64,000 nucleotides of DNA, from the NCBI GenBank assembly GCA_030141605.1, contig JAQGDQ010000070.1:62001-126000 (forward strand), given 5' to 3'. Below, in pieces: positions 28,477 to 64,000 of the stretch (the stretch's first letter is position 1; every line of letters starts with the position of its first letter). Origin of the DNA: Tubiluchus corallicola (taxonomy: Eukaryota > Animalia > Priapulida). The position numbers and the translations under genes were made by a program. The notes beneath the pieces were generated by a model. The model saw only the letters and a program-made list of their open reading frames with translations. It was not told the DNA's origin and ran no database searches.

Positions 28477-36054
<7,578 letters not shown>

Positions 36055-36955: not shown

Positions 36956-39766
36956 ATGGAGGCAGCAGGTGATGCAAACACAGTTGCTCAGCCGGCACTC
37001 AGCGACATTCAGTCTTACCTTGATACTTTCAATAAGGAGATTGATCCTGCCCAAATCACCGGTCGAGAGATGATGTACGTACAAACGTCAGTTTCAGATG
37101 ATAATAGCCCACAAGTTTTTGTGGCTACAACGGATAATGCTGGTCCAGCACAGCAGCAAGTTATAATGGCTTCAACAATGGATGGAAGCAATGAACATCA
37201 TCTTTATGTTGCTTCTTCAGAGGTAGATACACAGCCTGGTCAACAGCAGGTGCTGTACGTAGCACCCGAAAACGATGAGGGAATTTCAGGTTCTGAAATG
37301 GAAAATCAACATGTTGTCTTGGTGACAACAGATGAACAGGGAAACTTGCAGTATACAACTGCTGATGGTGCCGATTTTTTTCCTGATGGTGAACCTCGGC
37401 AACAAGAACATGCAACTACTGCATTTCAAGAGGAAATGATGGGTAAGGTATTGAAACAAGAAACTGATAGCACTACTGCTGCTTCATCACAGTCTGCTGA
37501 AAATGTGCAGGAACTTGTTCAGATCAACGTACCAAACTCAGACAATATGATCTTACAGCAAGATGGCAATGCTGCTCTCGAACAAGATGAACCAGTGCCG
37601 ACCCTGGAGTCAGCTTCTGCCTTGGACACAGAACAAGTCGTCAACGACTTACAGGCCGGAGAAAATCAGGTCGAACCTGTTGAAACTAATCAGTTAATTC
37701 AAATTGAAGGAGAGCGGGAGCCTGATGCCATGCAAATGGTGACGCGATTGGCCGAACAGGCCACTGGAGACAACATGATTTTGAATTCAGGCAACTCTTA
37801 CCAGACTGTTACTATTGTTCCTTCCGACAGCAATCCCGAGGAAGTGAGCTATGTTCTTATTGTGTCTCAGCCTGATGACAAAGACAAGGATTTAAGCGTG
37901 TATGACTTTAATGATGAAGGTCAGCAGATTACGCAGCAGCTGGATACTGAAGGTAAGAAATTCATTCGTGTGACACCAAGGAAAGGTAAACTTGCCGTCG
38001 GGCAGGCGGCTCACATGTGCAATTACTGCAACTATACAAGTCCGAAGCGCTACCTACTCGCCCGACATATGAAGTCGCATTCGGAAGAACGTCCTCATAA
38101 GTGTAACATATGCGAGCGTGGTTTTAAAACTGTAGCTTCTTTGCAGAATCATTTGAACACGCATACGGGCACGAAACCCCACCAGTGTAAAGAATGCACT
38201 AGTGCATTTACCACGTCTGGTGAACTGGTTAGACATGTACGGTACAAGCATACACATGAAAAGCCCCATAAATGCACAGAGTGCGACTATTGTAGCGTGG
38301 AATTAAGCAAGCTGAAGAGACACATGCGATGTCACACTGGGGAACGGCCATACCAGTGTCCACATTGCACTTATGCGAGTCCGGACACTTATAAACTGAA
38401 GCGCCATCTCCGTATTCATACTGGAGAAAAACCTTATCAGTGCGACATCTGTCAAGCTAGATTCACACAAAGCAATAGTTTGAAGGCGCATCGGCTAATC
38501 CACTCTGGAAACAAGCCCGTGTACCAGTGTGAGCTGTGTCCTACTACCTGTGGACGGAAAACGGATCTTAGAATCCACATACAGAAGCTACACACAAGTG
38601 ACCAGCCAATCAAGTGCAAGCGGTGTGAGAAAGAGTTTGTCGATCGTTACACCTACAAGTTGCATGTGAAGACGCACGATGGGGAGAAATGCTTTAAGTG
38701 CGACCTGTGTCCATATGCATCATTGACACAACGCCACTTAGAGTCGCACATGTTAATCCACACTGACCAGAAGCCATTCCAGTGTGGCCACTGCGACCAG
38801 ACATTCCGCCAGAAGCAACTTCTGAAGAGACATCAGAATTTGTATCACAATCCAGACTACGTTCCTCCCCCACCAAGGGAGAAGACCCACGAATGTCCTG
38901 AGTGTCACAAAATGTTCCGCCACAAGGGAAATCTCATACGTCATCTTGCTATTCATGATCCCGAAGCCGAGCAACAAGTGCACTATCCAGCAGAAGACAT
39001 GGAAGGTGAAGAATCGGTGGATGAAGAAACATTCCAGGGAGCTGTTCAGTTGGTCGAGTCCGAGCACATTGCTCTTGGCGATGCTGATTATGATTTAGAT
39101 GCCACAGCTGATTTTCAAAATTCTTCTGGTATTGGTGTAGCAGTGACGGAAGTTGTGCAGACTGTTACAGAATCGAATAGGCGCCGTGGCCGACCACGAG
39201 TGATGAAGTTTGAGGAGCCAATAGACGACGAAGAAGAAGAGGAAGAAGCCTACGAAGCAGAAATTGACGAGGAAGGTCGTCTGATTTCCATGAAGAGAAG
39301 AAGCAGATATGATCATGATGAAGATTATAATCCCACTCCTAATAAGAAGCAACTCCGGTCAGGCCTGCCTAGTCAGGAACGGATTCCGATCGATCCTGTC
39401 GCGGAAGCGACTAAAGTGGCTTTGCAAGTACAGAAAAAGGCGGTACAAAAACAGAAGGAGATCGAGGAAGCATTTGGGTTTGATGCAGAGGAACAAGAAA
39501 ACGGGACTGAGGAAACTCAAACAGCACAGTATTTACAAATCCAGGATCCAGACAGCGGGCAGCCACAACTGATACAGGTAGTGGCATCTGGTGACCCGGA
39601 AGAGCCGACCATAGTGCAGTTAACAGAAGAACAAATGGCACAGCTCGCTGCACAGGTTGACAGTGATGATCAGACTGTACAGGTTGTTTTACAGCAAGAT
39701 GAGCCGACTCCAGAAATGGAGTCGCAGTCTATCATAGAAGTACCTGTTGTAATCATGGACCAGTGA
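36956..39766 (+). CDS. CTCF: CCCTC-binding factor (CTCF), 936 aa, single coding exon
   Basis: Eleven tandem C2H2 fingers with diagnostic recognition helices (TSGELVRHVRYKH, ELSKLKRH, DTYKLKRH, QSNSLKAH, RKTDLRIH, QKQLLKRH), the N-terminal SVYDF cohesin-binding motif and a C-terminal AT-hook RRRGRPR. Confidence 0.97.
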   Translation: MEAAGDANTVAQPALSDIQSYLDTFNKEIDPAQITGREMMYVQTSVSDDNSPQVFVATTDNAGPAQQQVIMASTMDGSNEHHLYVASSEVDTQPGQQQVLYVAPENDEGISGSEMENQHVVLVTTDEQGNLQYTTADGADFFPDGEPRQQEHATTAFQEEMMGKVLKQETDSTTAASSQSAENVQELVQINVPNSDNMILQQDGNAALEQDEPVPTLESASALDTEQVVNDLQAGENQVEPVETNQLIQIEGEREPDAMQMVTRLAEQATGDNMILNSGNSYQTVTIVPSDSNPEEVSYVLIVSQPDDKDKDLSVYDFNDEGQQITQQLDTEGKKFIRVTPRKGKLAVGQAAHMCNYCNYTSPKRYLLARHMKSHSEERPHKCNICERGFKTVASLQNHLNTHTGTKPHQCKECTSAFTTSGELVRHVRYKHTHEKPHKCTECDYCSVELSKLKRHMRCHTGERPYQCPHCTYASPDTYKLKRHLRIHTGEKPYQCDICQARFTQSNSLKAHRLIHSGNKPVYQCELCPTTCGRKTDLRIHIQKLHTSDQPIKCKRCEKEFVDRYTYKLHVKTHDGEKCFKCDLCPYASLTQRHLESHMLIHTDQKPFQCGHCDQTFRQKQLLKRHQNLYHNPDYVPPPPREKTHECPECHKMFRHKGNLIRHLAIHDPEAEQQVHYPAEDMEGEESVDEETFQGAVQLVESEHIALGDADYDLDATADFQNSSGIGVAVTEVVQTVTESNRRRGRPRVMKFEEPIDDEEEEEEAYEAEIDEEGRLISMKRRSRYDHDEDYNPTPNKKQLRSGLPSQERIPIDPVAEATKVALQVQKKAVQKQKEIEEAFGFDAEEQENGTEETQTAQYLQIQDPDSGQPQLIQVVASGDPEEPTIVQLTEEQMAQLAAQVDSDDQTVQVVLQQDEPTPEMESQSIIEVPVVIMDQ

Positions 39767-49867: not shown

Positions 49868-51909
49868 TCTGAAAATGAAAGAGTGCTTCAAAAACAGTCA
49901 CCACCTGACAAGCTGAGGTCTAGAAAACAAGCTTCCAGTTAAGCTGGTTAAGATAAATTCAAAAAATAAAGAGAGATCATAGAAAACAAAGGAAACAATT
50001 TGGTTCCTTCTTCGTTTAATATAGCAATTGCCAAGAATGATGAAGCCACTGAAGCTAAACCAAGGTGTAGAAGTTACATCGTGTAACATTCATCTATCCA
50101 TTAATAAAGGCACAATCAATAAGCCAAAGCAATCAAGAAGAATTAACAATTATTACTTAATACTGTACTACAGTATTAATTAAAGTTTTCGGTTTGTCTG
50201 ATAAAACTTACGTCAGTAAAAACTGGAATTTTAGCCAATTTATATTAACTTAAATTATTGCTTTAACTTTCTGACTAAACACGTAGCTGTACTGGTCTAT
50301 AAATACAGTTACTGATTTTTACTAACTGTAATAGCATAGCGAAATTATTAATTACTAGTAATACTACAATTTTTTCAAGTGGTCTAGGCGGCAGGTGCTT
50401 ATAAATGGGCAAGTTTCGTTTAATGAGAATCATCGTAGAAATTAGAACAGTCAGTTCATAAATAACGATTATGCACCTAGTGCACGAACATTATTACTCC
50501 GGAATAATCTAGAAACCGGCATGCAGAATGACCTTGACAAACCCATTACCGGCCTATGCCCAAGCACGCCCGGCTTGCCATGCTTACATTTTAGTTGCAA
50601 CTCACCGTCTTGTAAAAACGTTTTACTAAAATACCTTAACAAAGAAGATCAATAAATACAAAAGTAAACCTATTAACGTTTACAATACGTACTCAGTTTC
50701 GTGATGAGCGCGAGAAAATAAAGGCATCAATAACCTGTAACAACTCAAGCTCACCACTAAACCAAATGATCTCCAGTCTACTTCAGTTACGCGAGAACTG
50801 ATACACGCAGCTAGCACCACGTAGTGTCAGAAAAATTAAATGTTTATATGCGGCGTCAATCAGTCGGCGCTTTCAATTCATCTCAAGTGAAGAAAATGAA
50901 TGTTAGAGATAGTTTCATAATTAAAATAACTTCCATTTGGTTGCTTGTGTAATCAAATGTCCAGAAATAATAACTACTAAATGACTAAACAAGCACTCAA
51001 TTTATGCTTATAAACTGGCCATTTACCATTATAGCGTTATAAAAAATTAAATTTTTAAAAAAGACTAAAAAGAAAATATTGTTGTTTAACTTATTTACGA
51101 AAAATGTGTGCACAACTAACAAACCGATTTTTATTAAGCATTGCAAAAAGTCTTGCAGCACAACTATACAGTTTTTCTTATAAACAAAGCAATATGATTA
51201 ATATGTCATAAAAAACACCAGATTCTAGACATTCCTACTAATGGAGATTATCTTATAAAATAAAACAAATTACAAAAATTATAATGAAAACAAAACTGTT
51301 AGCATTAACTCATTCCTGTTATTTCATTTTGGAAATAACTCATTTCCAAACTTCGATAATTTTCACAACATTTGTGTGGTGAAAATACCTGCACAGAAAG
51401 ACAATCGTTTTCAACTGCAATAATAACAAAGTCTACTGAACTACTGAGCTGCAGGTATAACATTAGCACATGTATAAAGTAGGGTTGTTTAACAAACATA
51501 TACCTGCATGGTAATGAAACGTGCTTGGCAACCAAGTCAAGCAGCAACAAGACTGGCTATTAAATAGATAGCAGTGCCAGAAAAACGTCTTTGAACCAAT
51601 TAATTTCTCTCAATCTGGGAGAATTTTATACCCATCCCAATGTGATTCAGACACATCTTAGAAGATCATTCTTGTAATTGTTCTCATAATTTGGGTTTGT
51701 TCCAGCTGCTGACACTCAACATTAGCCGTAAACCTTCTTGGTGAGTGTTAGATTGTCAGGCAGTGTGTCAAACTGGATAAAAAATACTTTGCAAATTGTG
51801 ATTATAAATGGCATGCAGCAAACTTAAAATGTCTGTTTTTCAAGTTTCTGATGTGCCACAATAAAAACTTTATATTTGAAAATCATGCTTTTGGGGTGTT
51901 CCTTTAAAC

Positions 51910-52630
51910 CAGTGGTTCCCAACCTTTTCCTTGCCAAGTACCCCTTCTAAATGTGGCGATCTTCAGCGTACCCCCACCTGATATTTTTCAACAAATCGTT
52001 TGAAAAACCAGTTTCCAGAAAACAACGATTAATTTTATCGACATTTTTTTATTTTAACTTTTTTTGAAAACATGAATTTTATCACTGATTATTAAGAAAT
52101 ACGTAATTTGAACAACTTTCTCGAATATGAAAACACCAATACAAGGAAACGCGATCTTCACAGCAGTCATAATTAATGCACACGCTGTTCTTGATGATTA
52201 TCAACAAGTTTTTTGATATCAGGTTTAATTGTTGATATTGCGACTCGCATGTCGCTCCTCAAATCCAAACGGTTTCTTACCTTCGTCTTCAAATGTAGCA
52301 TTGCACTGAAGCCTAGCTCACATTTGTATGTTGTCACAAATGGAACCAACACCTCGAAAGCCAAATACAGCACAAACAAAGCAACAAAATATAAGCTTTT
52401 CGTGAGCGGGTAAAAGTATTTTCTAGCGCACTGCGCAGGAATGATATTGTTTATGAAATATTGCCTAACCTGTAGAAAGAATATCGCGATGCTGCAACTT
52501 GGTGTATTTTACCCTTTTCACCGGCTACAGAAAGAAAAAAATGTGTCGATCTGACACACCTTCTGCGTACCCCTGGCATTGCTGTTGCGTACCCCCAGGG
52601 GGTACCCGTACTCCCGGTTGGGAACCACTG
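51910..52630 (-). mobile_element. Non-autonomous hAT (Charlie/Buster) transposon with a transposase C-terminal remnant
   Basis: 15-bp TIR CAGTGGTTCCCAACC / GGTTGGGAACCACTG and perfect 8-bp TSD CTTTAAAC (51902-51909, 52631-52638). The internal fragment LVPFVTTYKCELGFSAMLHLKTKVRNRLD is a hAT dimerisation-domain signature. Confidence 0.93.
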
Positions 52631-53187
52631 CTTTAAACACACAAATGATACCAAACATTTCCCCTTGTATAGTGTAAAAATGTATAAACAAAGTTTATAC
52701 TTATAAACTTTGTTTATAAACTTACTTTACTTATAAACTTTGTATGTGCATTAAATTATGTTAAAAGTACCTACAGTGCTTTCTACATGCAAAAGTCAAA
52801 TGTTACGAGGAAAAGCTAGAGTGGAAATTGCAAAAAATAGCACAATCCATCACAAACATTTCCAAGTTTTTTGGTTGCAAATGCGGGCATATGGCATCGA
52901 CAAAGCCTACTGTAGCTCTAAAATTCACTAGTAGAATCTTTCTGATCTTGCTAACAGAAAATTTTAAAACCCGTTTCTTTCACTTTTTCTATTTCGTAGT
53001 ATTCACAGATTTAATACACTCAGTGCAATAAAGGTCTGCAAGTTGTTGCAAATATCGATTAAAAAGGTATTTAATTGGTAAGGTGATTAATTCGATATAC
53101 TGAGCTATCATATTCACCATCAAATAATTTGCCATTTATCATCAGTTGATGTACAACATATAAAAATGCACAAGTTAATCTTTAAGG

Positions 53188-54669
53188 TCAGTAATTATCA
53201 TAGTGCTGTAGTCTGTATAATAAAGCATCACCCTTGTTTGTGCCAACGGCATAGTAACCACTATTGAGAGAAATGTCCTGGCACAAAGGAATACGCAACG
53301 CCTGATCTTTCATGTCTGGGAAATTGGAGAAAACAGTCATGGAAGGAAAGTGCACCATCTTCACAGCCTTCTCTTTTTCTGAAGATATCATGGTCATAAG
53401 TTCGGAAGTACAGTTGAATTTAAGATCGGTTACCGGAGTGGTCATGTTCAGCAGAACTTTCTTAGGTTTTGGAAATGAGGATGACACACAGTCGGTTTGG
53501 TCGTAGATATTTACGATGCCGCTATTGGACCCGCATGCAATAAACTGATCATTAGGTGAACAGGCTATGGCCGTGCCTTGCAAACAGCCTTCATCAACAA
53601 ATTTGTGAACGCAGGCGAGTGAATTCACATCCCAAACATACACCTTGCCTTCGTCACCACTTGAGTAAAGGGTATCACCGCTATGGCTGAAACACATGCT
53701 ACTGACATTGCCGTTCATCTTAATCGTTTTTATCAACTCTTTAGTTCTTGCGGAAAGCAAATGCATTCGCCCGTAAGTTCCATAGAACACAATAAATTTC
53801 CCGTCGGGCGAGACTACGAATCTTCTCATCACGTTTTCCTCTGTAGCTTTAATGTATTTGACACGCACGATCTTTCCTACCATCATGTTATAGTAATAAA
53901 AATATGCAAAATTTGAGCCAACAATGAACTCTTCTCCATTTGCTGCAAAACGTGCACAATGGATTGGAAACCTTTCAAAATAGATGCTTTCTATCCTGGG
54001 ATTATTCTTCCCGTCCACCTGGTACAAGCTGACGCGCAGATCAAAACCGGCAGTGAGAATGACTTGTGCAGATGGATGAAACTGCAGGCTCTTCACTCTT
54101 CCTGGAGACGTTGCGACACTTTCGTAGTTTGCATTTTTGCACTTTTTCACAGAAATGATGCCTTTAGGTAAAGTGCTAAACGAGCGAAGATACGATCCTG
54201 TTTGCTGTAGCAGACCCGTTTCTTCGGATTTTTCAGCCCTAGCAATATCCAGATTAGCCCACTTTGGTGTACCCGATATATTTTCAAACTGGGCTTTTCT
54301 GTTGCTTGTTCGGTCATCGTTCACTGCACTTTTCTGCCGCACATTAATATTAACGCTATTGTGTGCATCGTCATCATCTTCCCAAACGGGAACTCTTTGA
54401 GGAAGGGCATCCAATACGTCACTTCCACCTAACTCACTCTCAGTTTCTCCTGCCTTTTTGCTAGAACTTCCCAGATGTTGACTTTCACCCAAGCTCGTCA
54501 GCAATTCTGCACTGTCTCCAAAGACGAGTTTCTCAAATATTTTTTCTTCTTCATCTTTAGGTCTGCCTGATGGTTTCAAAGTTTTTGATTTTTTTCTTGG
54601 AGACTCACCATCTTCAGCTTCTTTGTGCTCAGAATGTTTACGTTCTACTGTTTTACTTTTACGTAGCAT
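53188..54669 (-). CDS. UTP18: U3 small nucleolar RNA-associated protein 18 homolog (WD40, SSU processome), 493 aa, intronless
   Basis: Motifs EKLVFG, PVWEDDDD, GTPKWA, QFHPSAQVILTAG, LYQVDGKNNPRIESI, FVDEGCLQG, VHFPSMTVFSNFP and LLYRLQHYDNY. The first ATG is at 54669; the ORF track's 54681 start is a TTG. Confidence 0.95.
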   Translation of the reverse strand: MLRKSKTVERKHSEHKEAEDGESPRKKSKTLKPSGRPKDEEEKIFEKLVFGDSAELLTSLGESQHLGSSSKKAGETESELGGSDVLDALPQRVPVWEDDDDAHNSVNINVRQKSAVNDDRTSNRKAQFENISGTPKWANLDIARAEKSEETGLLQQTGSYLRSFSTLPKGIISVKKCKNANYESVATSPGRVKSLQFHPSAQVILTAGFDLRVSLYQVDGKNNPRIESIYFERFPIHCARFAANGEEFIVGSNFAYFYYYNMMVGKIVRVKYIKATEENVMRRFVVSPDGKFIVFYGTYGRMHLLSARTKELIKTIKMNGNVSSMCFSHSGDTLYSSGDEGKVYVWDVNSLACVHKFVDEGCLQGTAIACSPNDQFIACGSNSGIVNIYDQTDCVSSSFPKPKKVLLNMTTPVTDLKFNCTSELMTMISSEKEKAVKMVHFPSMTVFSNFPDMKDQALRIPLCQDISLNSGYYAVGTNKGDALLYRLQHYDNY

Positions 54670-54698
54670 TTTGCTGTTCAATCACTAAATTTCAATCT

Positions 54699-57600
54699 TC
54701 AAAATTCCCCTGTACCTTCTAGAAATGCAAGAGCATCAATTGACTGCATAGTTGACTCTGCAAAGTACATAAAATAATTAGTATGTTCAATTTAATGATA
54801 AAACAAAAAATTAAAAAACAACATATCAAAAATTAAGCAATCTATCTAATCATATTTTCTCTGTGATTGCCGTATCTGCAAATGGTCAACATTAAAAAAA
54901 CTCATCGTTGATTCAACATTAATCTAATAAAAGTGATAACAGTGATAAAAAGTAATCCACGCGAGATTTGCATATGGGGAAATTTTGTTCATTTTTATTG
55001 AGTTATTGTAATTATGATCAATGCCTTTGAATTAAAAATATTAAATATTCGAAGATAACTGTTTCACCTCCATTGCTTTTCTTAAATAAGTACAAGTCTG
55101 GACTCCAATTGTCAATCTCCTCATGCAGTCATACACGTAATTTTTTGTGCTTTAACTATCTGCCTATTTATTTTACCTCAGATCATCAAAAATTTACATT
55201 ATTATGATATATTATGACTCCATTATACATTCGCTTGCTTATGTCTAAGAATTATGCTTGTGTTATAAAGTAAATTTCAGTTGCCATTGTTATTATGTTT
55301 CTGTTGTCAGATTTTTATTTCAGTTCTTATTTCAGTTATTTTCAGTTTGATTTTTTTATATTATGCACTTACTATTACTGTGTATGAATTGTACTAACAC
55401 GTTATAAACATATCAATTTAATGTCATTCGTAACAATTTAGTTTTTATTATAAGCAGTACTAACACTAATACACTGTAGCATAGCGCCTATAAAAAATGT
55501 TCATCACTAACCAAAGGGCAGCTGACTAGATGACCAATTGGTCTTTCACTGCCCTTTCTTCACATTTTTGTTACCAAATTAATTGTATTATAACTGTGCG
55601 TGTGTTGAAAGATAAATAAAAGATTATTATTATTATTATTATATTATTATTACAATGTGCATAATCAAAATTTCAAGGTTAATGCCGCCTCCATTATTCC
55701 ATTTAAACAACTTGTAATTGGAGCTATCGGTCAGATTTTTACCACGCGCTTTAGTCAGCTAAAGAACTAAAAAACTGACACTACAAAACGCTCTTCATTC
55801 AACTATATTGGAAACTGGGAAACTGGAAAATATAGGAAATAGGTCCATAACAGACTTTTGTCTTTGTGTTGTGCAGGTAAATCAATTTTTGCAAACTGAC
55901 AACTGCATTAAAATCTTTTTTGCTATCATCGATCAGGAGCCTGCTCTGATATGACATACCCTATCCTCATTCTCAGCATTAATTACTTACCAAAATCACG
56001 TTTTTGCAAAGTTTTCCGCTTACTTCTGGCTAAGTATTCATTTGCTTCCTTTGCAAAACTAGCAACGAACAGTTCCTGGAAGAAAAATTCTGTTCTATAA
56101 CAAATCTGCTTTGATAAAATTATGAATGAATGAAAAATTTATTAGCATTACATACTACTTCATTTCAACTGTTGAATAACATAATACATTAAAAATTCAT
56201 AAAATAAATTATTTTAAAATACACTAAAAATTAATTCACCATAAAAATAACAATTTAAAATATAAGTCATAAGTTATTTATTGAAGTGCCTGGCAGACAT
56301 ATTACGTATCCAAATGTTTTTTATTTTTTACACAAATTAAAGAAATTATATAATTTTAGATCATGAATGTCAGATAGTCAAATACATGTAGTAAGATGCC
56401 ATTCAATTTTAGCTCAAAAGGTTAAATTAGAAACATTAATCATCTGTCAAATCTAGACTATCTAGCAAAGCTTTTCACCTGCACTGTGGAGTATTAAATG
56501 CCAATAAACAGGCATCTTAGCAATTGTCACTACTGTGACAAGCACTCGCTGAGAACATAATATCAGTTATTGTTGCTGTTTACTCGTTGCATACTGCTTT
56601 GCTTGACACTGATGTGCACAGAATTTTCAATGATTTATACAAAACAGAAGCTTCCTTTGCATGTATTTATTTTTTAATGACACAATAAGTTTTGCCTGCA
56701 TTACGACAGTCTAAAAGGTTAACATTACTAATGTTTGTAAACAAAAGCCTAAATGAGGGTGTAAATGTTATGTCATGTCACGTGATCAGTCACATGCTGG
56801 CTTTTCGATTGGCGGACTAAATGAAACGTATCTGTAGCGGTTGAAATATTTTGCAAAAATTGGAGTAAACATGAAAACGTAAGTACTTTATTCGCATAAG
56901 ATTATATTTGGGTGATATAATGTTTCAATGTGAGTTTTTTGAAATTTACTTATACTACTCTTTCCTTGTCCTTTAAATAGCAATTTTTTGTAGCTTTACT
57001 TTCTTTAGATGCTAATGCACAAACAGGAATACAAAGAAAAAACTGCAAACTTGCAAAATACAATTCACTAAACTAATACTGATTTTACAACTCTGTTAGT
57101 AACTACGACTACTGGGCAAGTAATTAGATAAAGAGAAATAACACAATTAACGAGAAATAACTTAATTTTAACAATTTTTTTGCACGAAAATATGGCACTT
57201 GAGGACCAAACTCACAAAATTGTGACCTTAGACTACCTTACTGTTTACATTCCTTGTTTGTTTTGTTTCGTATTTTAAAACGTTTGTTTTCCAGTTGTAA
57301 AACAGGATTAATAAGTGTACGTTTTGGTACTCTTTACAAGCCATTTCAAGCACAGGCTTGCTATTGAAGATTGCTGTAAACATGATGCCAATGTTTTTTG
57401 TCAAAGTAATCAGTTATTTTCTGCTTCTTGCAGTCACTGCATATTTATCCAATCTGTGCGGCTAATCTAATAGATACTTCAAAATACTGCCACTCGTATA
57501 TAAAGTATAAAAACTGGACGAAGACAATTTTATTTTTTGATTTCAAAATTATGATTATTTATTCTCAAATATGGTAATAATTAGGGATGCACCGGATCTG

Positions 57601-59228
57601 GATCCTGATATCTAGTAATTTTCGTTGGATCATGCACCGCTTGTATTTCTATTTTTATGCATAAAGCTACAGACTGCACACTGATTGTGAAAAAAATAGG
57701 CATAACTGTTTAATTAGCCGAATAGTCTTAACTTTTTTAAAGAACTCGAAGGATTTCTATTAATATTTTTAGGAATTTACGTAAGTAGCGCAAGCGATAT
57801 AGCAATCTTCACGCTGTGGTTCCTTGAAGCAAATAGCGCAAAAATAGCACCATTGCACCAAAAATGTCTGCTAAAAGTTTAGAGCCATTTACTTCCAAGA
57901 GTAAAAGCATAGATGGCATTTTTTGAATGTAAACCAAGTGCGGATCAAGTTTTCAAAATTATAGTACATCAATGCTTGCAGTAGTTCCACTTAAAATTAC
58001 TCAGTGACCCTGAAAATTGACAAACGATGCAACCATATGAATAAAAGGCTACACAAATGAAATACTGTTTCCATTAATTTGTAGGCCGTACAGATTCGTA
58101 TCCGATCCGGAACCGGTAACAGTGAATCCGGTGCATGCCTATTAATAATAGGTGTATAAAAACAGAAGAAAGTTTGGCTTAAAACTGAAAATTGGAGCAC
58201 AAGTAGACGCATTAGTGCTGTTAATTTTTGAATGACTTCAATAGTTGCCCACACAGTGGCACTTCTTGGATTGGAAGCATTTTTCGTTAGTTATTTTCCG
58301 GAAACATTTTAGGCACTCATAATGTGCTCATCTGTGTAGGTACTTAATTACAAATGTAGCAATTTACTAAGTGTCACCTGGTTAACACATGCCTACAATA
58401 CATAGCTACTTTCTTTCCATGTTTTGGTTTCAAAAAGACTGTAAATTGTAATCTTGTTAATAAAATTCAAAATCTGAGATGGTCACTGGAAAGTTTTTAA
58501 AAATCTAGGTGTGTTGTCAATACATAATTTAAAGTATACTATAAATGTTACAATTTGTGTAAGTGATGCATTGTTAACTGCAAATTTCAACACAGAAAAA
58601 ATACAAAGTTTCATTAATAAGGAGATATAGTTAACATGGAAAGCTTAGTTTACCAGCTACAGGGACCGGTGTAGTGACTTCTGTATCACATTCCTTGAAC
58701 ACATTTATCAGAATTTTCCAGAGGACCAGCTTTAAATTTGCACCGTGACAGTGGTCATCAAATTCAGCTCGTCCCTGGCTGCTACCGCCCATCATGGTGC
58801 AAGTTCTTCATTAATTTAGGCATGTGAAATATTACTTTACTATTCAAATATTTTTCTATGACCCAGGACAAAGTACGTAAACTTACAGTAGCCTTTCCAA
58901 TGAGGAAGACAGCTTCTTGGCTGGCTAATGTGACATCTGGATCTTGCTTTATTATAAATTTAACGCGTGATAAGGGAAACCTATTCGTCGTTTCCAAACA
59001 AGGCTGTGCTTCTTTTCCACCAACTTCAACTGCGTTACTGTCTATCGCAACGTGGCCGGCATTAACTAACGGCTCTGCAGCAAACTCAGTGTTATTTTCC
59101 TCAATGTTCCGATTTGTAACAGTTTCTGATTTGTCACTGTCAGTTTTATCTGTATTGTTTTCAATGTCAGACTGCTGAGAATTTGAAACATGAATTTCAG
59201 CAGAAACAATAATTTTCCCACCATCCAT
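54699..59228 (-). CDS. POLE4: DNA polymerase epsilon subunit 4 (histone-fold protein), about 161 aa, 3 coding exons
   Basis: Exons 59228-58887, 56075-55991 and 54757-54699 join in frame as ...RFPLSRVKFIIKQDPDVTLASQEAVFLIGKAT|ELFVASFAKEANEYLARSKRKTLQKRDF|ESTMQSIDALAFLEGTGEF*. Confidence 0.92.
55040..55652 (+). mobile_element. Decayed L2/CR1-like LINE 3' end in POLE4 intron 2
   Basis: Stem-loop GGGCAGCTGACTAGATGACCAATTGGTCTTTCACTGCCC (55516-55554), AATAAA and an (ATT)n tail. The 5' boundary is approximate. Confidence 0.45.
57582..58141. mobile_element. hAT-type MITE in POLE4 intron 1
   Basis: TIRs TAGGGATGCACCGGA / TCCGGTGCATGCCTA and an 8-bp TSD GTAATAAT / TTAATAAT. Confidence 0.8.
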
Positions 59229-61799
59229 GACAGATGATCAACACGCTTTCAACAGACAGCTTCACTCGATAATGAACATAACGAACTACGCATTTCTTAC
59301 GACTCCCACATTGAAAATACGAATACGAAGCATTTATTCAGCCGTAAAATATATAGAACGTACACAAGTATAACAATAAGATTACAGTTACAATTGTCAG
59401 ACGCCGGTGTTACGACTTGGTGAAGCCAGATTGCATCTGCTCCACAAGCAAGAGATTGCCATAGGCATTCGATTGATTTCAAGATTGATGTCATTGTGAA
59501 CGACCGAAAATAATAAAAAATACATTTAATTTGCAATTAGATTAATAACCTGTGAAACTGCTATTACTGTAGTAGATATGGCTTCTATGTATCTGTTACC
59601 TATTCTAAAAATGGGTTTAACCTAATAGTGAACCGTTGCTCTGGTTTTGCTATATTCTGTACTACCAGTTGACTTTTACAAGACGTTATATGCAGGCATC
59701 TTTTTTACCTATATTTATGTGGAAACTTCTATATCAATAAACGTTTAAAGTATATTCTACTGTTATACCTTTTGTCAACACGACAATTGATTTGCAAAAG
59801 AATTAGATTTGGAAAATCAGGATTTTTAGCGTAAAATCAAGGCATTAAAGTGCAGATGCAGGAGATACCCGTAAATGACTTGTCGCACTGTAAAGTCAAA
59901 TAGGTTTTTTGCACCACCTCAGTTCTCCTAATTGATAATTACATTTCTGCTAGTGATAGCTAAATTATAATTATAATAATTTTATATAAACTAATTTTAT
60001 ATAATAATAATATATATAAACTAATGTGTGTTATAAGTTTTCGAAGAATATGCTGTTTAACATGTTCATGTTATTTATGTTCAACTGTTTATGTGGTCCG
60101 AAGCCGTGAAGTGAATTCGCTTTTATAAGAACAACATGATTAATGTTTGATAGCAATTATCGTGTGATTAGTTTTGGGCCGCTACTCTCTACTAAAATTC
60201 GTTATAATTTGCAAATATAAAAGTAATTTAAAGTTTTAACTCAGTTGTTTATCCTAGATACGCTCCAAAAACAGTTTAAAAGACGACATAAGTACGCAAA
60301 ATATTAACTTTCCCAAAAGTGTTCATGCACATTAGTCGACAAAGTAATTGGTTGGACAGCACTTCTTTCTAAGTGTTGCATAGGAACACGAAGGATTCTT
60401 AAATTATTTTTTCCATTATTGAAATGGTATTGGCAAGAGTGTCCATAAACTAATATTCTAAAGATTAAAAAGGTAGGGTACTAGAAGTCAGGTATGTCAT
60501 GCCTGCACACTTTATTAATACACTTCTTGCATTTAAATAAAAAATGTTGTACCCGGAGTAAATAGCGAGTGAAATGGGGGGGGGGGTGGTCTAGGTCGTT
60601 TTCTGAAAAAGCAGTTTGTCATACATACACCCAGAGCTGGATAGGTGCCATAGGATTATGGGTCGTAGGTCAGTTTTGTCACTGTTTTTTGGGTGGGTTA
60701 CACGGGCGTGGGCTTGAAGCCAGACCCACGTGGTCCAGGTAAAACTTACAACAACAGTGTAAGAGAATGCCACTTTAATTTTTTGGCCACCGTTTCTAAT
60801 CTATATAAATAGTCGTTTCATTTGTCACTACAGTAATTTTACATGTCTTTAATTATCAATGCATTATTGATGGAAGAATTTTTGAATTTTAAAATTTGAA
60901 TTTGAATTTTAAAAATTGTTTATTATTACTCAATCCCTTTTTAAAAAACGGCCGGTAGTAACATCAGATTTCTCAATAAAGACCCTCCACCTCTATGCCT
61001 TTGTTCCTCACACACATTTTGAATTGGTAGTGTGAGTTGTGTTACGTCATTACCATTTTTGTCCTCATTGTGGTGTAAAACAATTTTTAAATAAATAATT
61101 ATGTTATTTCTGTCTTAAGCTCTTCTATAAAAACCTGCGGCCCAAAGCCGTGTTTTAACTGTAAGAGTAATTTTTGTGGCTAAAAGGCGCATTTCTTCTA
61201 ATCTGAAGGAAACGTAAGAATGTGCTCAACAACACAATCATATAAATCAATTAAATTTAGAGTTTAACAGGCAGGGCTGTTTGCCTAGAAATACCGTGAG
61301 ACCAACATAAGCGCAATTGATTACCAGTGGCGAATTTAGGGCGCGGGCCCAAGAGGCCTGCGCCCTTTTCATAGTAGCAGCTTCAGCACAACAAGTGAAT
61401 ATTTTCTCTGGATTATAAGCCTTAGAATGTTATATTAGCTTCCAAGTTGTTTTTGGTTTGCCATGTGGTTTTTGGCAACATTTTAAGGTTTTCTTTAAGC
61501 AGATTCTTACTGGTGTGTCACGTGGTAATCTTAGAAGGTACCATAATCATCTCAATTTTCGGAGCCAGACTTTTGTACTCTAAGGAATTTATTTGGTTCT
61601 GGTATATTAATATTCATTTTTGATTATGTAAGGTCATCTTGTCTTCAAAACTTTCCTTAGAAGACTTCTATGAAGAGTGTCAACTCACTTTTCTTGAATA
61701 ATCACAAAACCCTATGTTTCACGGTTGTATATAAATATGCTGGTATATATGCATTAAATAGTCGAAGTTTTGTGTTTAGACTTATTTCTTGCTAGTTAT

Positions 61800-64000
61800 T
61801 GCATTCTTGCGTTGAAGAACAGCATACATTGCAGGACAGACTGCAAAACTATACCATACGAAAATACAAGTAATACAAACACACAAGCACACAAACAAAA
61901 CAACATTACAAAAAATAATAATAACAATTTCGCATTGGCTTCAATCATTACATCAATTGAATATCAACAATGTAAAAAATTAAGCATACAGTATCCTTCT
62001 CCAAATCTTTCTTACACTGGAAGTAAAAGTATCACTACCGTTCTACATAGCAAGTTTTCACTGTTTGTAATTCTAGTATTCAGGCTGTAAATGCTTTTCC
62101 TGAGAATAACATCAAAGTACACTAATTTATGCGTCACAGAAATGTCCCTAGTACTGTGATCGAACTGGTAATTGAAAAATTTGCGCATTGATTTATTATG
62201 AGCAACCTTAAGTTTGTTCAGATTATAATTATGAAAGTGCTGCCAAGTGGCTATACAGTAGAAGCTATTACAATAAGTATTGAATAGATGTGTTTTTACA
62301 GCATTGGTGCAATAGTAAAATTTACGGCATAGCTTATTTGCTCGAGAGTAATAAATGCCTACTTCTCGTATGATATCTAGATCGTCTCTGTTGTCCCTAG
62401 AAATGATGTGGCCAAGATGTTTTTCATTATCACAACGCTCAATAACATTATCACAAGGCACAGATCAGGCTATCTTAACTGTTCCGAACTCAAAGTTGCT
62501 GATATTGGAAGGCGTTATAGTCAGAAGCTTAGTTTTGTCAACATTAATTAAAATATCAAATTTTGCCGCATAATCAACATTTATATCACATAACTTCTTC
62601 AGAGCAGTTGCCGTGGTACTTAACAGGCAGATATCGTCAGCGTATGTAAAATGATTGTAATACATATCTGCAATTTGACATCCAAGATTACTAGAAGCTA
62701 GATTTTCACCAAGTTCTCTAAAGTAGAAGTTAAACAGAAGAGGGGACATCTTTTCTCCCTGCCGTACACAGTTGCCAACTTTAAAAAATCTCAGAGTTAT
62801 AGTTACCTCATCTCACTAGCATGCCTTGATGGGTGTAATAAAAAACAAGTAAACGAACAACAACATTTGGCATCTCAGTTTCAATGAGTTTTAAAAACAG
62901 TTTAAAATAATTAATTCTATCGAAGGCTTTGGAGGCGTCTAAAAACATTATATGTACAGTACTCTGGCGGTCTATATAACATTCTACTACTTCTTTTAAG
63001 ATCCTGTAATACGTAACTCAGTACCCATATTCTCCACATAACCAAACTAGTTGGGTGTGGCAGGTAAACAATCTGCATAACGAGTCAATACAACAATTTC
63101 TTAAAGTTTTCTGAAATTATTTCTGTCTGTTATATCTCTATTTTTGTCTTTAATAAGTCGCACAATTACTGATAACATTAGTGAGTTTTGTAAGAAACGA
63201 TGAGTGATACAAGAGTTATAAAACAATGCGAACAAAACTGGTAACACGTGAGAGGTATGTCTAAAATGCTCTGACTTTAGACTGTCTGGTCCAGCTTACC
63301 TATTTAATGCTAGCTTTTTAATGGCTTGCTGTACCTCAGCTCCCGTAAATTTGTTAATTTCATTGACGTTTCCAGGCAGTGCTTCGTGTAATTTATTGGC
63401 AAGATTGCTGTTATCAACAGCAATTGCGAGTTAAGGAGATTCTGATAATGATCACCCCACATGTCACAAATTGTCCTTTCGTCTGCTACGTGGCCAATTT
63501 TTGATGGAAAATGGCATTTTTGAATTAGTTTCTTTTTTGACCTGAGCCCAGAACTGATATGAGATGCAGTTTATAAGTCTATATGCAATTTTGTTCTTGG
63601 CGCTTACATTCGCGCAAAGCTTGTTTAAATTGTGCGCGTGCACGCACTTACTGGCTAAATGCCCAGAACGAGGTTTGCCATTCAAGTACCAGTAGCATTG
63701 GCGCAGAAACTTATGCTTATCAGCAACAAGCTCATTCCAGCCAGGAATTATTGTCTTTTTAGTTTTGTTGTTCTCAGGTTGTTTGCTGCCTGGAATAGTG
63801 CAATTTGCAGCATCCATACTAACTGAGTATCCATAATATATTGTCATAGTATTCTCTAAGCTGCAATTTATGATCGGTGTTGTGGCAGTTTATATCTTCG
63901 CGAAGAAGTGCGTGATACCGTACTGCAAGTTTAGACAACAAATCTTGCGTCATTAAAGTGTAATCGAACAGTTGGTTGCTGCTAGCTTTATCCCAATCTA
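61800..64000 (-). mobile_element. Degenerate LINE (non-LTR retrotransposon) reverse transcriptase ORF2, frameshifted; extends past the window end
   Basis: RT motifs across broken frames: FLDASKAFDRI, VRQG..MSPLLFNFY, FTYADDICLL, KHLGHIIS and LFNTYC, plus the upstream IPGWNELV motif. Multiple stops and frameshifts. Confidence 0.92.

What the first reader, a model, noticed from the sequence alone, without database searches (positions are those of the whole stretch)
53188..59228. POLE4 and UTP18 appear to form a bicistronic unit: the UTP18 ATG is 29 nt after the POLE4 stop in the same exon
Seen: POLE4's last exon begins at acceptor TTTGCAG|54757 and stops at TGA 54701-54699. The spacer AGATTGAAATTTAGTGATTGAACAGCAAA (29 nt) is followed directly by the ATG (54669) of an intact 493-aa UTP18. 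Both reading frames contain stops in the spacer, so this is not a fusion protein. The spacer has no room for a promoter or poly(A) site, and I saw no minus-strand AATAAA until about 52050. Known: animal bicistronic mRNAs are rare (e.g. SNURF-SNRPN, ASDURF-ASNSD1), and I know of no POLE4-UTP18 case. Inference: one transcript may couple a replication/histone-chaperone subunit to a ribosome-biogenesis factor. Possible mechanisms are reinitiation, SL trans-splicing at the spacer AGs (ATTTAG|, GAACAG|), or alternative 5' ends that omit the POLE4 ATG, such as donor GTC|GTAAGA at 59301/59300.
Basis: partly seen in the sequence, partly recalled or inferred. Interest (0 to 1): 0.85.

Follow-up and report, generated by a model that had tools for sequence, protein, structure and literature searches.

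The report
POLE4 and UTP18 share one message
In a probable priapulid worm, an intact intron-less gene for the ribosome-building protein UTP18 starts 29 bases after the stop codon of the DNA-polymerase subunit POLE4, so one messenger RNA likely carries both genes, an arrangement well known in fruit flies but with a pairing that looks specific to this lineage and is not yet shown by RNA data.

Summary
The layout is real. A three-exon POLE4 (161 aa) stops 29 nt before an intact, intronless 493-aa UTP18 that groups with Priapulus (100/98). A dicistronic mRNA is therefore likely (about 0.75); that UTP18 is also translated from it is about 0.45. No RNA evidence was obtainable. The pairing is not conserved: the two genes lie on different records in 8 of 8 species, Priapulus caudatus included. 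Animal dicistronic loci are not rare: FlyBase lists 159 pairs, and by my count 36 simple pairs have 0-50-nt spacers, with the 3' gene only dicistronic in 23. Against clean leaky scanning, POLE4 has seven further AUGs with no depletion, though all six out-of-frame ones are in weak context. The spacer AGs are poor acceptors, so trans-splicing is unlikely. The scan noted similar short-spacer pairs of other genes in three other genomes. Verdict: new member of a known kind, interest 0.4.

The parts
58887..59228 (-). POLE4 coding exon 1 (ATG 59228; unstructured acidic N-terminus, then start of histone fold; donor GTAAGT follows)
   Evidence: PF00808; best PDB hit 5y26_B, E 0.039
55991..56075 (-). 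POLE4 coding exon 2
   Evidence: profile hit E 5e-8
54699..54757 (-). POLE4 coding part of exon 3, ending in TGA 54701-54699; holds in-frame Met146 (54749, purine at -3) and an internal acceptor-like AG before 54718
54670..54698 (-). 29-nt intercistronic spacer: no ATG, no poly(A) hexamer, three AGs with poor pyrimidine tracts
   Evidence: identical in X1 contig
53188..54669 (-). UTP18, intronless intact ORF, 493 aa, start context CAAAATG
53070..53075 (-). ATTAAA, candidate shared poly(A) signal 113 nt after the UTP18 stop
   Evidence: use not shown
53010..53015 (-). second ATTAAA, candidate poly(A) signal
   Evidence: use not shown
53848..53858 (-). overlapping AATACA/ATTAAA inside the UTP18 ORF, where a POLE4-only mRNA could end (rival)
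   Evidence: use not shown
59295..59300 (-). GTAAGA donor-like site upstream of the POLE4 ATG; possible route to a POLE4-skipping UTP18 mRNA
   Evidence: chance expectation 0.1-0.2 per 300 nt
54960..54966 (-). TCTCGCG in POLE4 intron 2, also twice at the presumed peroxiredoxin promoter; weak post hoc hint of an internal promoter
   Evidence: 4 found, 0.77 expected; motif chosen after seeing it

Best explanation
POLE4's last exon runs, 29 nt after its stop, into an intact intronless UTP18 frame, so the locus likely makes one spliced ~2.2-kb mRNA ending at a shared poly(A) signal after UTP18, and UTP18 is likely translated from it by ribosomes that slip past POLE4's start or restart after its stop. 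Shown: both ORFs, the splice sites, the spacer, and the lack of any poly(A) hexamer before the UTP18 ATG. Inferred: any poly(A) site inside the UTP18 ORF would also cut UTP18's own mRNAs, so a shared 3' end (ATTAAA 53075/53015) is favoured. An intronless second cistron also leaves no exon junction behind the POLE4 stop, which would spare the mRNA from junction-dependent decay (general knowledge, untested in this phylum). Inferred route: scanning subunits pass POLE4's GTC-ATG-G start and six weak out-of-frame AUGs. Many would start at Met146, read only 16 codons, stop at the POLE4 TGA and reinitiate at CAAA-ATG. Inferred origin: a lineage-specific move of UTP18, probably by retroposition, into POLE4's 3' end.
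For: Anatomy. UTP18 is a conserved full-length orthologue: 51% identical to Priapulus over 100% of its length, and it keeps 88 of 98 near-invariant columns, within but at the low end of the range of 18 homologues (87/96 to 92/93). Fly base rate, my hand count of File S1 of PMC4528330 (all six parts read): of 36 simple two-gene pairs with a single 0-50-nt spacer, the 5' gene is dicistronic-only in 31 and the 3' gene in 23. All 6 of 6 out-of-frame AUGs in POLE4 have a pyrimidine at -3, against 8 of 20 in UTP18 and 21 of 45 in CTCF (P 0.04 by codon shuffle, 0.21 by synonymous redraw; post hoc). CpG o/e is 1.23 just upstream of POLE4 and 0.65 in intron 2, against 0.68 for the window, so there is no CpG sign of an internal promoter.
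Against: AUGs are not depleted in POLE4: 6 out-of-frame observed against 5.2 expected, plus one in-frame. In algal bicistrons AUGs upstream of ORF 2 are reduced and one added AUG cuts ORF 2 output (PMC11892635 passages). POLE4's start has purine at -3 and G at +4, so it is not weak by the Kozak rule. Reinitiation after long ORFs usually needs extra RNA elements (PMC10275272 section 9), and no TURBS-type TGGGA lies near the stop (motif recalled). In 13 of the 36 short-spacer fly pairs the 3' gene has its own monocistronic mRNA, and that list holds only loci already known to be dicistronic. The pairing is not conserved: different records in 8 of 8 species. No target-site duplication or poly(A) remnant supports retroposition.
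Confidence: 0.45

Rival explanations
1. Structural dicistron only. POLE4 mRNA carries the UTP18 ORF as an untranslated 3' UTR, and UTP18 protein comes from a separate short-leader mRNA. That mRNA would start at an internal promoter near exon 3, or be spliced from a shared first exon (donor 59300) to the acceptor before 54718 or a spacer AG.
For: 13 of 36 short-spacer fly pairs work this way: 8 by alternative promoter, 5 by a splice that disrupts the 5' CDS (hand count). Shared promoters and 5' exons are common in flies (130 genes). The AG before 54718 scores 13, as high as the real exon-3 acceptor. Five of eight short contigs of UTP18 relatives that I looked at have AUG-free leaders of 41-71 nt. 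TCTCGCG lies 291 nt upstream of the ATG (post hoc).
Against: Donor-like hexamers are expected by chance. The 54718 tract lies in coding sequence. A start in intron 2 would put up to 8 AUGs in the leader. Intron 2 shows no CpG excess.
Confidence: 0.3
2. Two overlapping but separate genes: POLE4 mRNA ends inside the UTP18 ORF (for example after ATTAAA 53853) and UTP18 has its own start, so no mRNA holds both ORFs.
For: Poly(A)-signal variants exist inside the ORF: AGTAAA 54657, AATACA 53858, ATTAAA 53853. FlyBase treats a 3' UTR overlapping the next gene's 5' UTR as too ordinary to flag.
Against: A working site inside the ORF would also truncate UTP18's own transcripts (inference). Such hexamers are common in 35% GC DNA.
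Confidence: 0.12
3. The UTP18 here is a redundant, little-expressed retrocopy riding in POLE4's 3' UTR, and the working gene lies elsewhere.
For: Run X2 (same species label as X1) has a 164-nt contig 89% alike to 54127-54290. The 13 listed of its 18 differences fall in 8 replaced and 3 silent codons, so other UTP18-like sequence may exist. The window copy has a longer branch than Priapulus (0.89 vs 0.49).
Against: The 493-codon ORF is unbroken, with conserved start, end and 88 of 98 near-invariant columns. The X2 differences fall at variable columns, so they do not show which copy is functional.
Confidence: 0.07
4. SL trans-splicing operon: a polycistronic pre-mRNA is resolved by adding a spliced leader at a spacer AG.
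For: AGs lie 15 and 4 nt before the ATG, and one is TTTAG, like short nematode acceptors (recalled).
Against: Scores are 6 and 4, reached by 54% and 71% of all AGs, against 10-17 for real acceptors. There is no poly(A) signal to free the POLE4 mRNA. The next gene (peroxiredoxin) has its own promoter-like region and a likely cis-spliced 5' exon 2.4 kb on. No paper linking priapulids to spliced leaders or operons was found.
Confidence: 0.06

Closest known systems
Drosophila dicistronic loci with short spacers between unrelated genes (PMC4528330 File S1: Snapin-CG9960 18 nt, Mocs2-CG42503 11 nt, MED9-CG42518 28 nt, CG42488-CG5116 29 nt, CG42455-vnc 24 nt)
   Same: Two complete ORFs on one strand, a spacer too short for a 3' end, and mostly unrelated housekeeping partners.
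   Different: Those loci have cDNA or RNA-seq support and this one has none. Neither Mes4 nor wcd, the fly symbols I recall for POLE4 and UTP18, is in File S1. This host is a probable priapulid, a phylum for which my searches found no such report.
Green-algal leaky-scanning bicistrons (PMC11892635; PMC7896298 seen as listing only)
   Same: Short inter-ORF distance, ORFs out of frame, and a strong start context on ORF 2.
   Different: Algal loci are conserved, with weak ORF 1 starts and reduced AUGs. Here AUG number is not reduced, the ORF 1 start is not weak, and the pair is not conserved.
   Same: A small conserved ORF ahead of a larger housekeeping ORF.
   Different: Their upstream ORFs are under 100 codons and the arrangement is conserved (recalled). 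POLE4 is 161 codons and the link looks lineage-specific.
TURBS termination-reinitiation (caliciviruses, influenza B; PMC10275272)
   Same: Second ORF shortly after a long first ORF.
   Different: TURBS stop and start lie within 20 nt and need an 18S-complementary motif. Here the spacer is 29 nt and no TGGGA is near the stop.

Membership tests
Animal dicistronic mRNA locus (FlyBase definition) | Two distinct, complete, non-fused ORFs in tandem on one strand | tested here: met
Animal dicistronic mRNA locus (FlyBase definition) | No poly(A) site between the ORFs | tested here: met
   29-nt spacer without any of six hexamer variants; variants do occur inside ORF 2
Animal dicistronic mRNA locus (FlyBase definition) | A processed mRNA holding both complete ORFs | not testable with these tools
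   no run on record as RNA holds the stretch
Animal dicistronic mRNA locus (FlyBase definition) | Both proteins translated from that mRNA | not testable with these tools
   needs ribosome profiling or reporters
Leaky-scanning bicistron | Reduced AUG number upstream of ORF 2 | tested here: not met
   6 out-of-frame AUGs vs 5.2 expected, P(<=6) 0.81
Leaky-scanning bicistron | Weak contexts at upstream AUGs | tested here: inconclusive
   ORF 1 start has G at -3 and +4; 6 of 6 out-of-frame AUGs weak, P 0.04 and 0.21 under two nulls; Met146 strong
TURBS reinitiation | 18S-complementary motif shortly upstream of a stop within about 20 nt of the start | tested here: not met
   TGGGA only at CDS position 9, spacer 29 nt (motif recalled)
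SL trans-spliced operon | Strong unpaired acceptor before the downstream ORF | tested here: not met
   scores 6 and 4 vs 10-17 for seven real acceptors; crude score, tuned to pyrimidine-tract acceptors
SL trans-spliced operon | Spliced-leader RNA in the genome and on mRNA 5' ends | not testable with these tools
   genome not held; 0 Rfam matches in the window says nothing about the rest
Retrogene | Intronless ORF | tested here: met
   CTCF in the same window is also a single ORF, so intron loss in place is not excluded
Retrogene | Poly(A) remnant and target-site duplication | tested here: not met
   no shared word over 8 nt between the flanks, no A run of 6 until 316 nt past the stop; expected to erode if old
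Retrogene | Intron-containing parent at another locus in this lineage or its relatives | not tested
   other locus in Priapulus shown; its exon structure could not be read

The most novel reading that the evidence does not exclude
The animal's only UTP18, an essential ribosome-assembly gene, jumped into POLE4's 3' end, lost its own promoter and is made only from the dicistronic mRNA by a relay. Ribosomes that leak through POLE4 start at its lineage-specific Met146 (Val in both priapulid-like relatives), translate 16 codons as a built-in short uORF, and reinitiate 29 nt later. This would be a recent, datable birth of an obligate animal dicistron despite an AUG-rich first cistron.
Probability: 0.2. 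Interest if true: 0.62.

Novelty: new member of a known kind. Interest (0 to 1): 0.4.

Why it matters
If confirmed, it extends animal dicistronic mRNAs to a priapulid-like ecdysozoan and gives a case with a known unlinked state in Priapulus caudatus, so its birth could be dated and its translation route tested. How second cistrons are translated behind AUG-containing first cistrons is still open: Crosby et al. note most fly pairs do not fit scanning. It does not show a conserved link between DNA replication and ribosome biogenesis. Practically, gene annotation would likely merge or drop one of the two genes.

Tried and rejected
RNA evidence: no RNA holder listed. Runs X1 (kind unknown) and X2 (RNA only by guess) were laid twice and showed no joint at any POLE4 intron and no loose end in 52900-55100; contigs are filtered, so this shows nothing either way. 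X1's contig 54063-54705 has depth 55.6 against about 3-7 for most other single-copy contigs and 2.7 at 53467-53617. It could reflect a transcript start near 54705, a POLE4 mRNA ending inside UTP18, a multi-copy fragment or uneven library cover; I did not use it as evidence. Own genome not held. The word search with POLE4 exon 1 found no candidate; the HMMER search with 40 residues then found 190 hits, 150 listed. Fusion protein rejected: no POLE4-like stretch in 129 UTP18 proteins and no UTP18-like stretch in 150 POLE4-like hits; length limits of the searches exclude long fusions. In-frame fusion by cryptic acceptors is possible on paper but would drop POLE4's invariant F-L-G motif. UTP18 nested in a last POLE4 intron (donor-like AAG/GTACAG in exon 3) was rejected because the C-terminal five residues match two priapulid-like proteins. 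POLE4 beside UTP18 in 80 metagenome loci: 0 of 80; the one profile hit is an NF-YB-like ORF on the other strand. By eye most of these loci are non-animal or short transcript contigs, so the test is weak. No same-strand ORF of 80 aa or more ends within 100 nt of a UTP18 ORF in the 72 of 80 loci where one was resolved. Rfam: 0 matches. The TCAGTY scan was uninformative (102 matches). Literature: POLE4 + UTP18 co-occur in 1 paper, an iPSC study seen as listing only. Priapulid SL or operon searches gave nothing relevant (passages of PMC2566580 read). Retrogene-dicistron searches gave nothing relevant by listing. The library lacks most subscription papers, and file 1 of the PMC4528330 supplements was not searchable.
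Full report
Observation. On the minus strand, POLE4 has three coding exons (59228-58887, 56075-55991, 54757-54699). Of the GT-AG combinations tried, this one gives a 161-aa protein with the family's C-terminus. A POLE4 profile hits all three exons. The best relative is Priapulus caudatus XP_014675368.1, ending FLEGTGDF against FLEGTGEF here. The TGA (54701-54699) is followed by 29 nt and the ATG of a 493-aa intronless ORF. That ORF is UTP18: 465 hits, the best being Priapulus XP_014675635.1 at 51% over the full length. The MLR start is shared by 19 of the 24 homologues printed, and the window copy keeps 88 of 98 near-invariant columns. In a 40-row tree it is sister to Priapulus at 100/98, so the host is probably a priapulid or close relative, though not P. 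caudatus. The ORFs are out of frame and stops close all frames, so there is no read-through fusion. A contig of run X1 matches 54063-54705 without a difference, which makes an assembly error in the spacer unlikely; X1 may be related to the assembled sample.

What the anatomy forces. The spacer holds no poly(A) hexamer, so a POLE4 mRNA must extend into the UTP18 frame. It can end inside it (AGTAAA 54657, AATACA/ATTAAA 53858/53853) or after it (ATTAAA 53075 and 53015, AATAAA 52053). A site inside the ORF would also cut UTP18's own transcripts, so I infer a shared 3' end and put a structurally dicistronic mRNA at about 0.75. UTP18 has no introns, so no exon junction lies behind the POLE4 stop, which would be compatible with escape from junction-dependent decay (general knowledge; not tested in this phylum). 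No run on record as RNA holds the stretch, so all transcript statements are inferred.

How UTP18 could be translated. The spliced POLE4 CDS has 8 AUGs: the start, Met146 and six out of frame, against 5.2 out-of-frame expected. AUGs are thus not depleted, unlike algal leaky-scanning bicistrons (PMC11892635, passages). All six out-of-frame AUGs have a pyrimidine at -3, against 8 of 20 in UTP18 and 21 of 45 in CTCF. This is P 0.04 under codon shuffling but 0.21 with the protein fixed, and I noticed it before testing it. The only strong internal AUG is Met146, 16 codons before the stop; Priapulus and P0312 have Val there. A leak-then-restart relay is therefore possible but unproven. Reinitiation after long ORFs usually needs extra elements (PMC10275272 section 9); no TURBS-type motif is near the stop and the spacer exceeds the viral 20 nt. 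The alternative is a monocistronic UTP18 mRNA. The AG before 54718 scores as well as the true exon-3 acceptor (13). The 59300 donor is one of seven GT[AG]AG sites between 60000 and 54758, with 0.1-0.2 GTAAGA/GTAAGW expected per 300 nt. Intron 2 has background CpG (0.65) while the stretch upstream of POLE4 has 1.23. A TCTCGCG motif shared with the peroxiredoxin promoter region is a post hoc hint only. The spacer AGs proposed for trans-splicing score 6 and 4 against 10-17 for the two POLE4 and five peroxiredoxin acceptors.

Conservation. For all eight species that had both proteins in my lists, the record lengths differ (POLE4 vs UTP18): Priapulus caudatus 112,099 vs 95,523; Tachypleus 187.3 vs 169.7 Mb; Limulus 43,663 vs 521,709; Centruroides vittatus 3.44 vs 3.94 Mb; C. 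sculpturatus 249,225 vs 1,211,576; Nephila pilipes 864,223 vs 658,487; Amia calva 1.68 vs 2.35 Mb; A. ocellicauda 22.8 vs 53.4 Mb. Unannotated second copies are not excluded. None of 80 metagenome UTP18 loci carries POLE4 (a weak test). The link is therefore probably lineage-specific. Retroposition is the simplest origin for an intronless ORF at another gene's 3' end, but no poly(A) remnant or target-site duplication survives, the Priapulus gene structure could not be read, and CTCF in this window is also a single ORF. A 164-nt X2 contig 89% alike to UTP18 hints at a second copy or a divergent population.

Comparison with known systems. Crosby et al. 2015 (PMC4528330: section 6 read whole, section 8 passages, File S1 read whole) list 159 dicistronic pairs, 45 of them exclusively so, and state that most do not meet scanning requirements. 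I counted by hand the simple pairs with one 0-50-nt spacer, leaving out overlaps, loci with more than two genes and three pairs with variable or atypical distances (slmo, seq, Tyler). Of 36, 21 are dicistronic only, 2 have only a 5' monocistronic form, and 13 have a 3' monocistronic form (8 by promoter, 5 by splicing). That list includes only known dicistrons, so it overstates the prior. Wall et al. 2005 was seen as a reference title only; PMC6614817 and PMC7896298 as listings only. POLE4 and UTP18 co-occur in one paper of the library, seen as a listing, and no priapulid SL or operon paper was found. Earlier notes of this scan describe short-spacer pairs of other genes in three other animal genomes (unchecked) and none for this pair.

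Verdict. The arrangement is real and most likely a dicistronic locus of the kind common in flies, new in its partners and its phylum, not conserved, and without transcript support so far. Odds: functional dicistron 0.45; dicistronic POLE4 mRNA with UTP18 made from its own isoform 0.30; separate overlapping genes 0.12; silent extra copy 0.07; SL operon 0.06. Interest 0.4.

Noticed in passing
window 36956-39766 (+): CTCF-like zinc-finger gene as one uninterrupted 936-aa ORF, preceded by an acceptor-like TTCCAG; CTCF usually has several coding exons (recalled). The name rests on my recognition of the fingers; Pfam gives only C2H2 families.
   Followed up: partly
window 49867 to about 41500 (-), promoter region about 50800: Five-exon 2-Cys peroxiredoxin gene with a likely non-coding first exon, an Inr-like TCAGTT and two TCTCGCG motifs in a CpG-rich patch.
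   Followed up: partly
window 54875-54796 (-): A second acceptor-like site in POLE4 intron 2 (score 11) opens an 8-codon frame and is followed by ATTAAA at 54796: a possible alternative last exon giving a truncated, monocistronic POLE4 without the invariant F-L-G motif (read by hand).
   Followed up: partly
window 59128-59133: Run X1 shows a 12-nt, frame-preserving insertion in POLE4's variable N-terminal region: a length allele.
   Followed up: no
window 54127-54290: Run X2 has a contig 89% alike to this part of UTP18 with mostly replacing differences; its three other matches in 51500-60500 are short, repeat-like pieces. A UTP18 fragment may be repeated elsewhere in the genome.
   Followed up: partly
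protein P0312: A complete 110-aa priapulid-like POLE4 on a 4,327-nt Logan contig, long for a POLE4 mRNA. No UTP18 among the 120 listed of 465 hits has that contig length. The contig could not be read.
   Followed up: partly
window 51910-52630: A roughly 700-nt repeat, probably a DNA-transposon remnant with inverted ends (seen by eye), 560 nt after the UTP18 stop; X1 covers 51914-52483 at high depth. The AATAAA at 52053 lies inside it.
   Followed up: no
window 62012-63889 (-): Broken LINE-type reverse transcriptase fragments (RVT_1, E 3e-12).
   Followed up: no
window 28477-28902 (-): 141-codon Ser/Pro-rich open frame without a Pfam match, possibly an exon of an unidentified gene.
   Followed up: no
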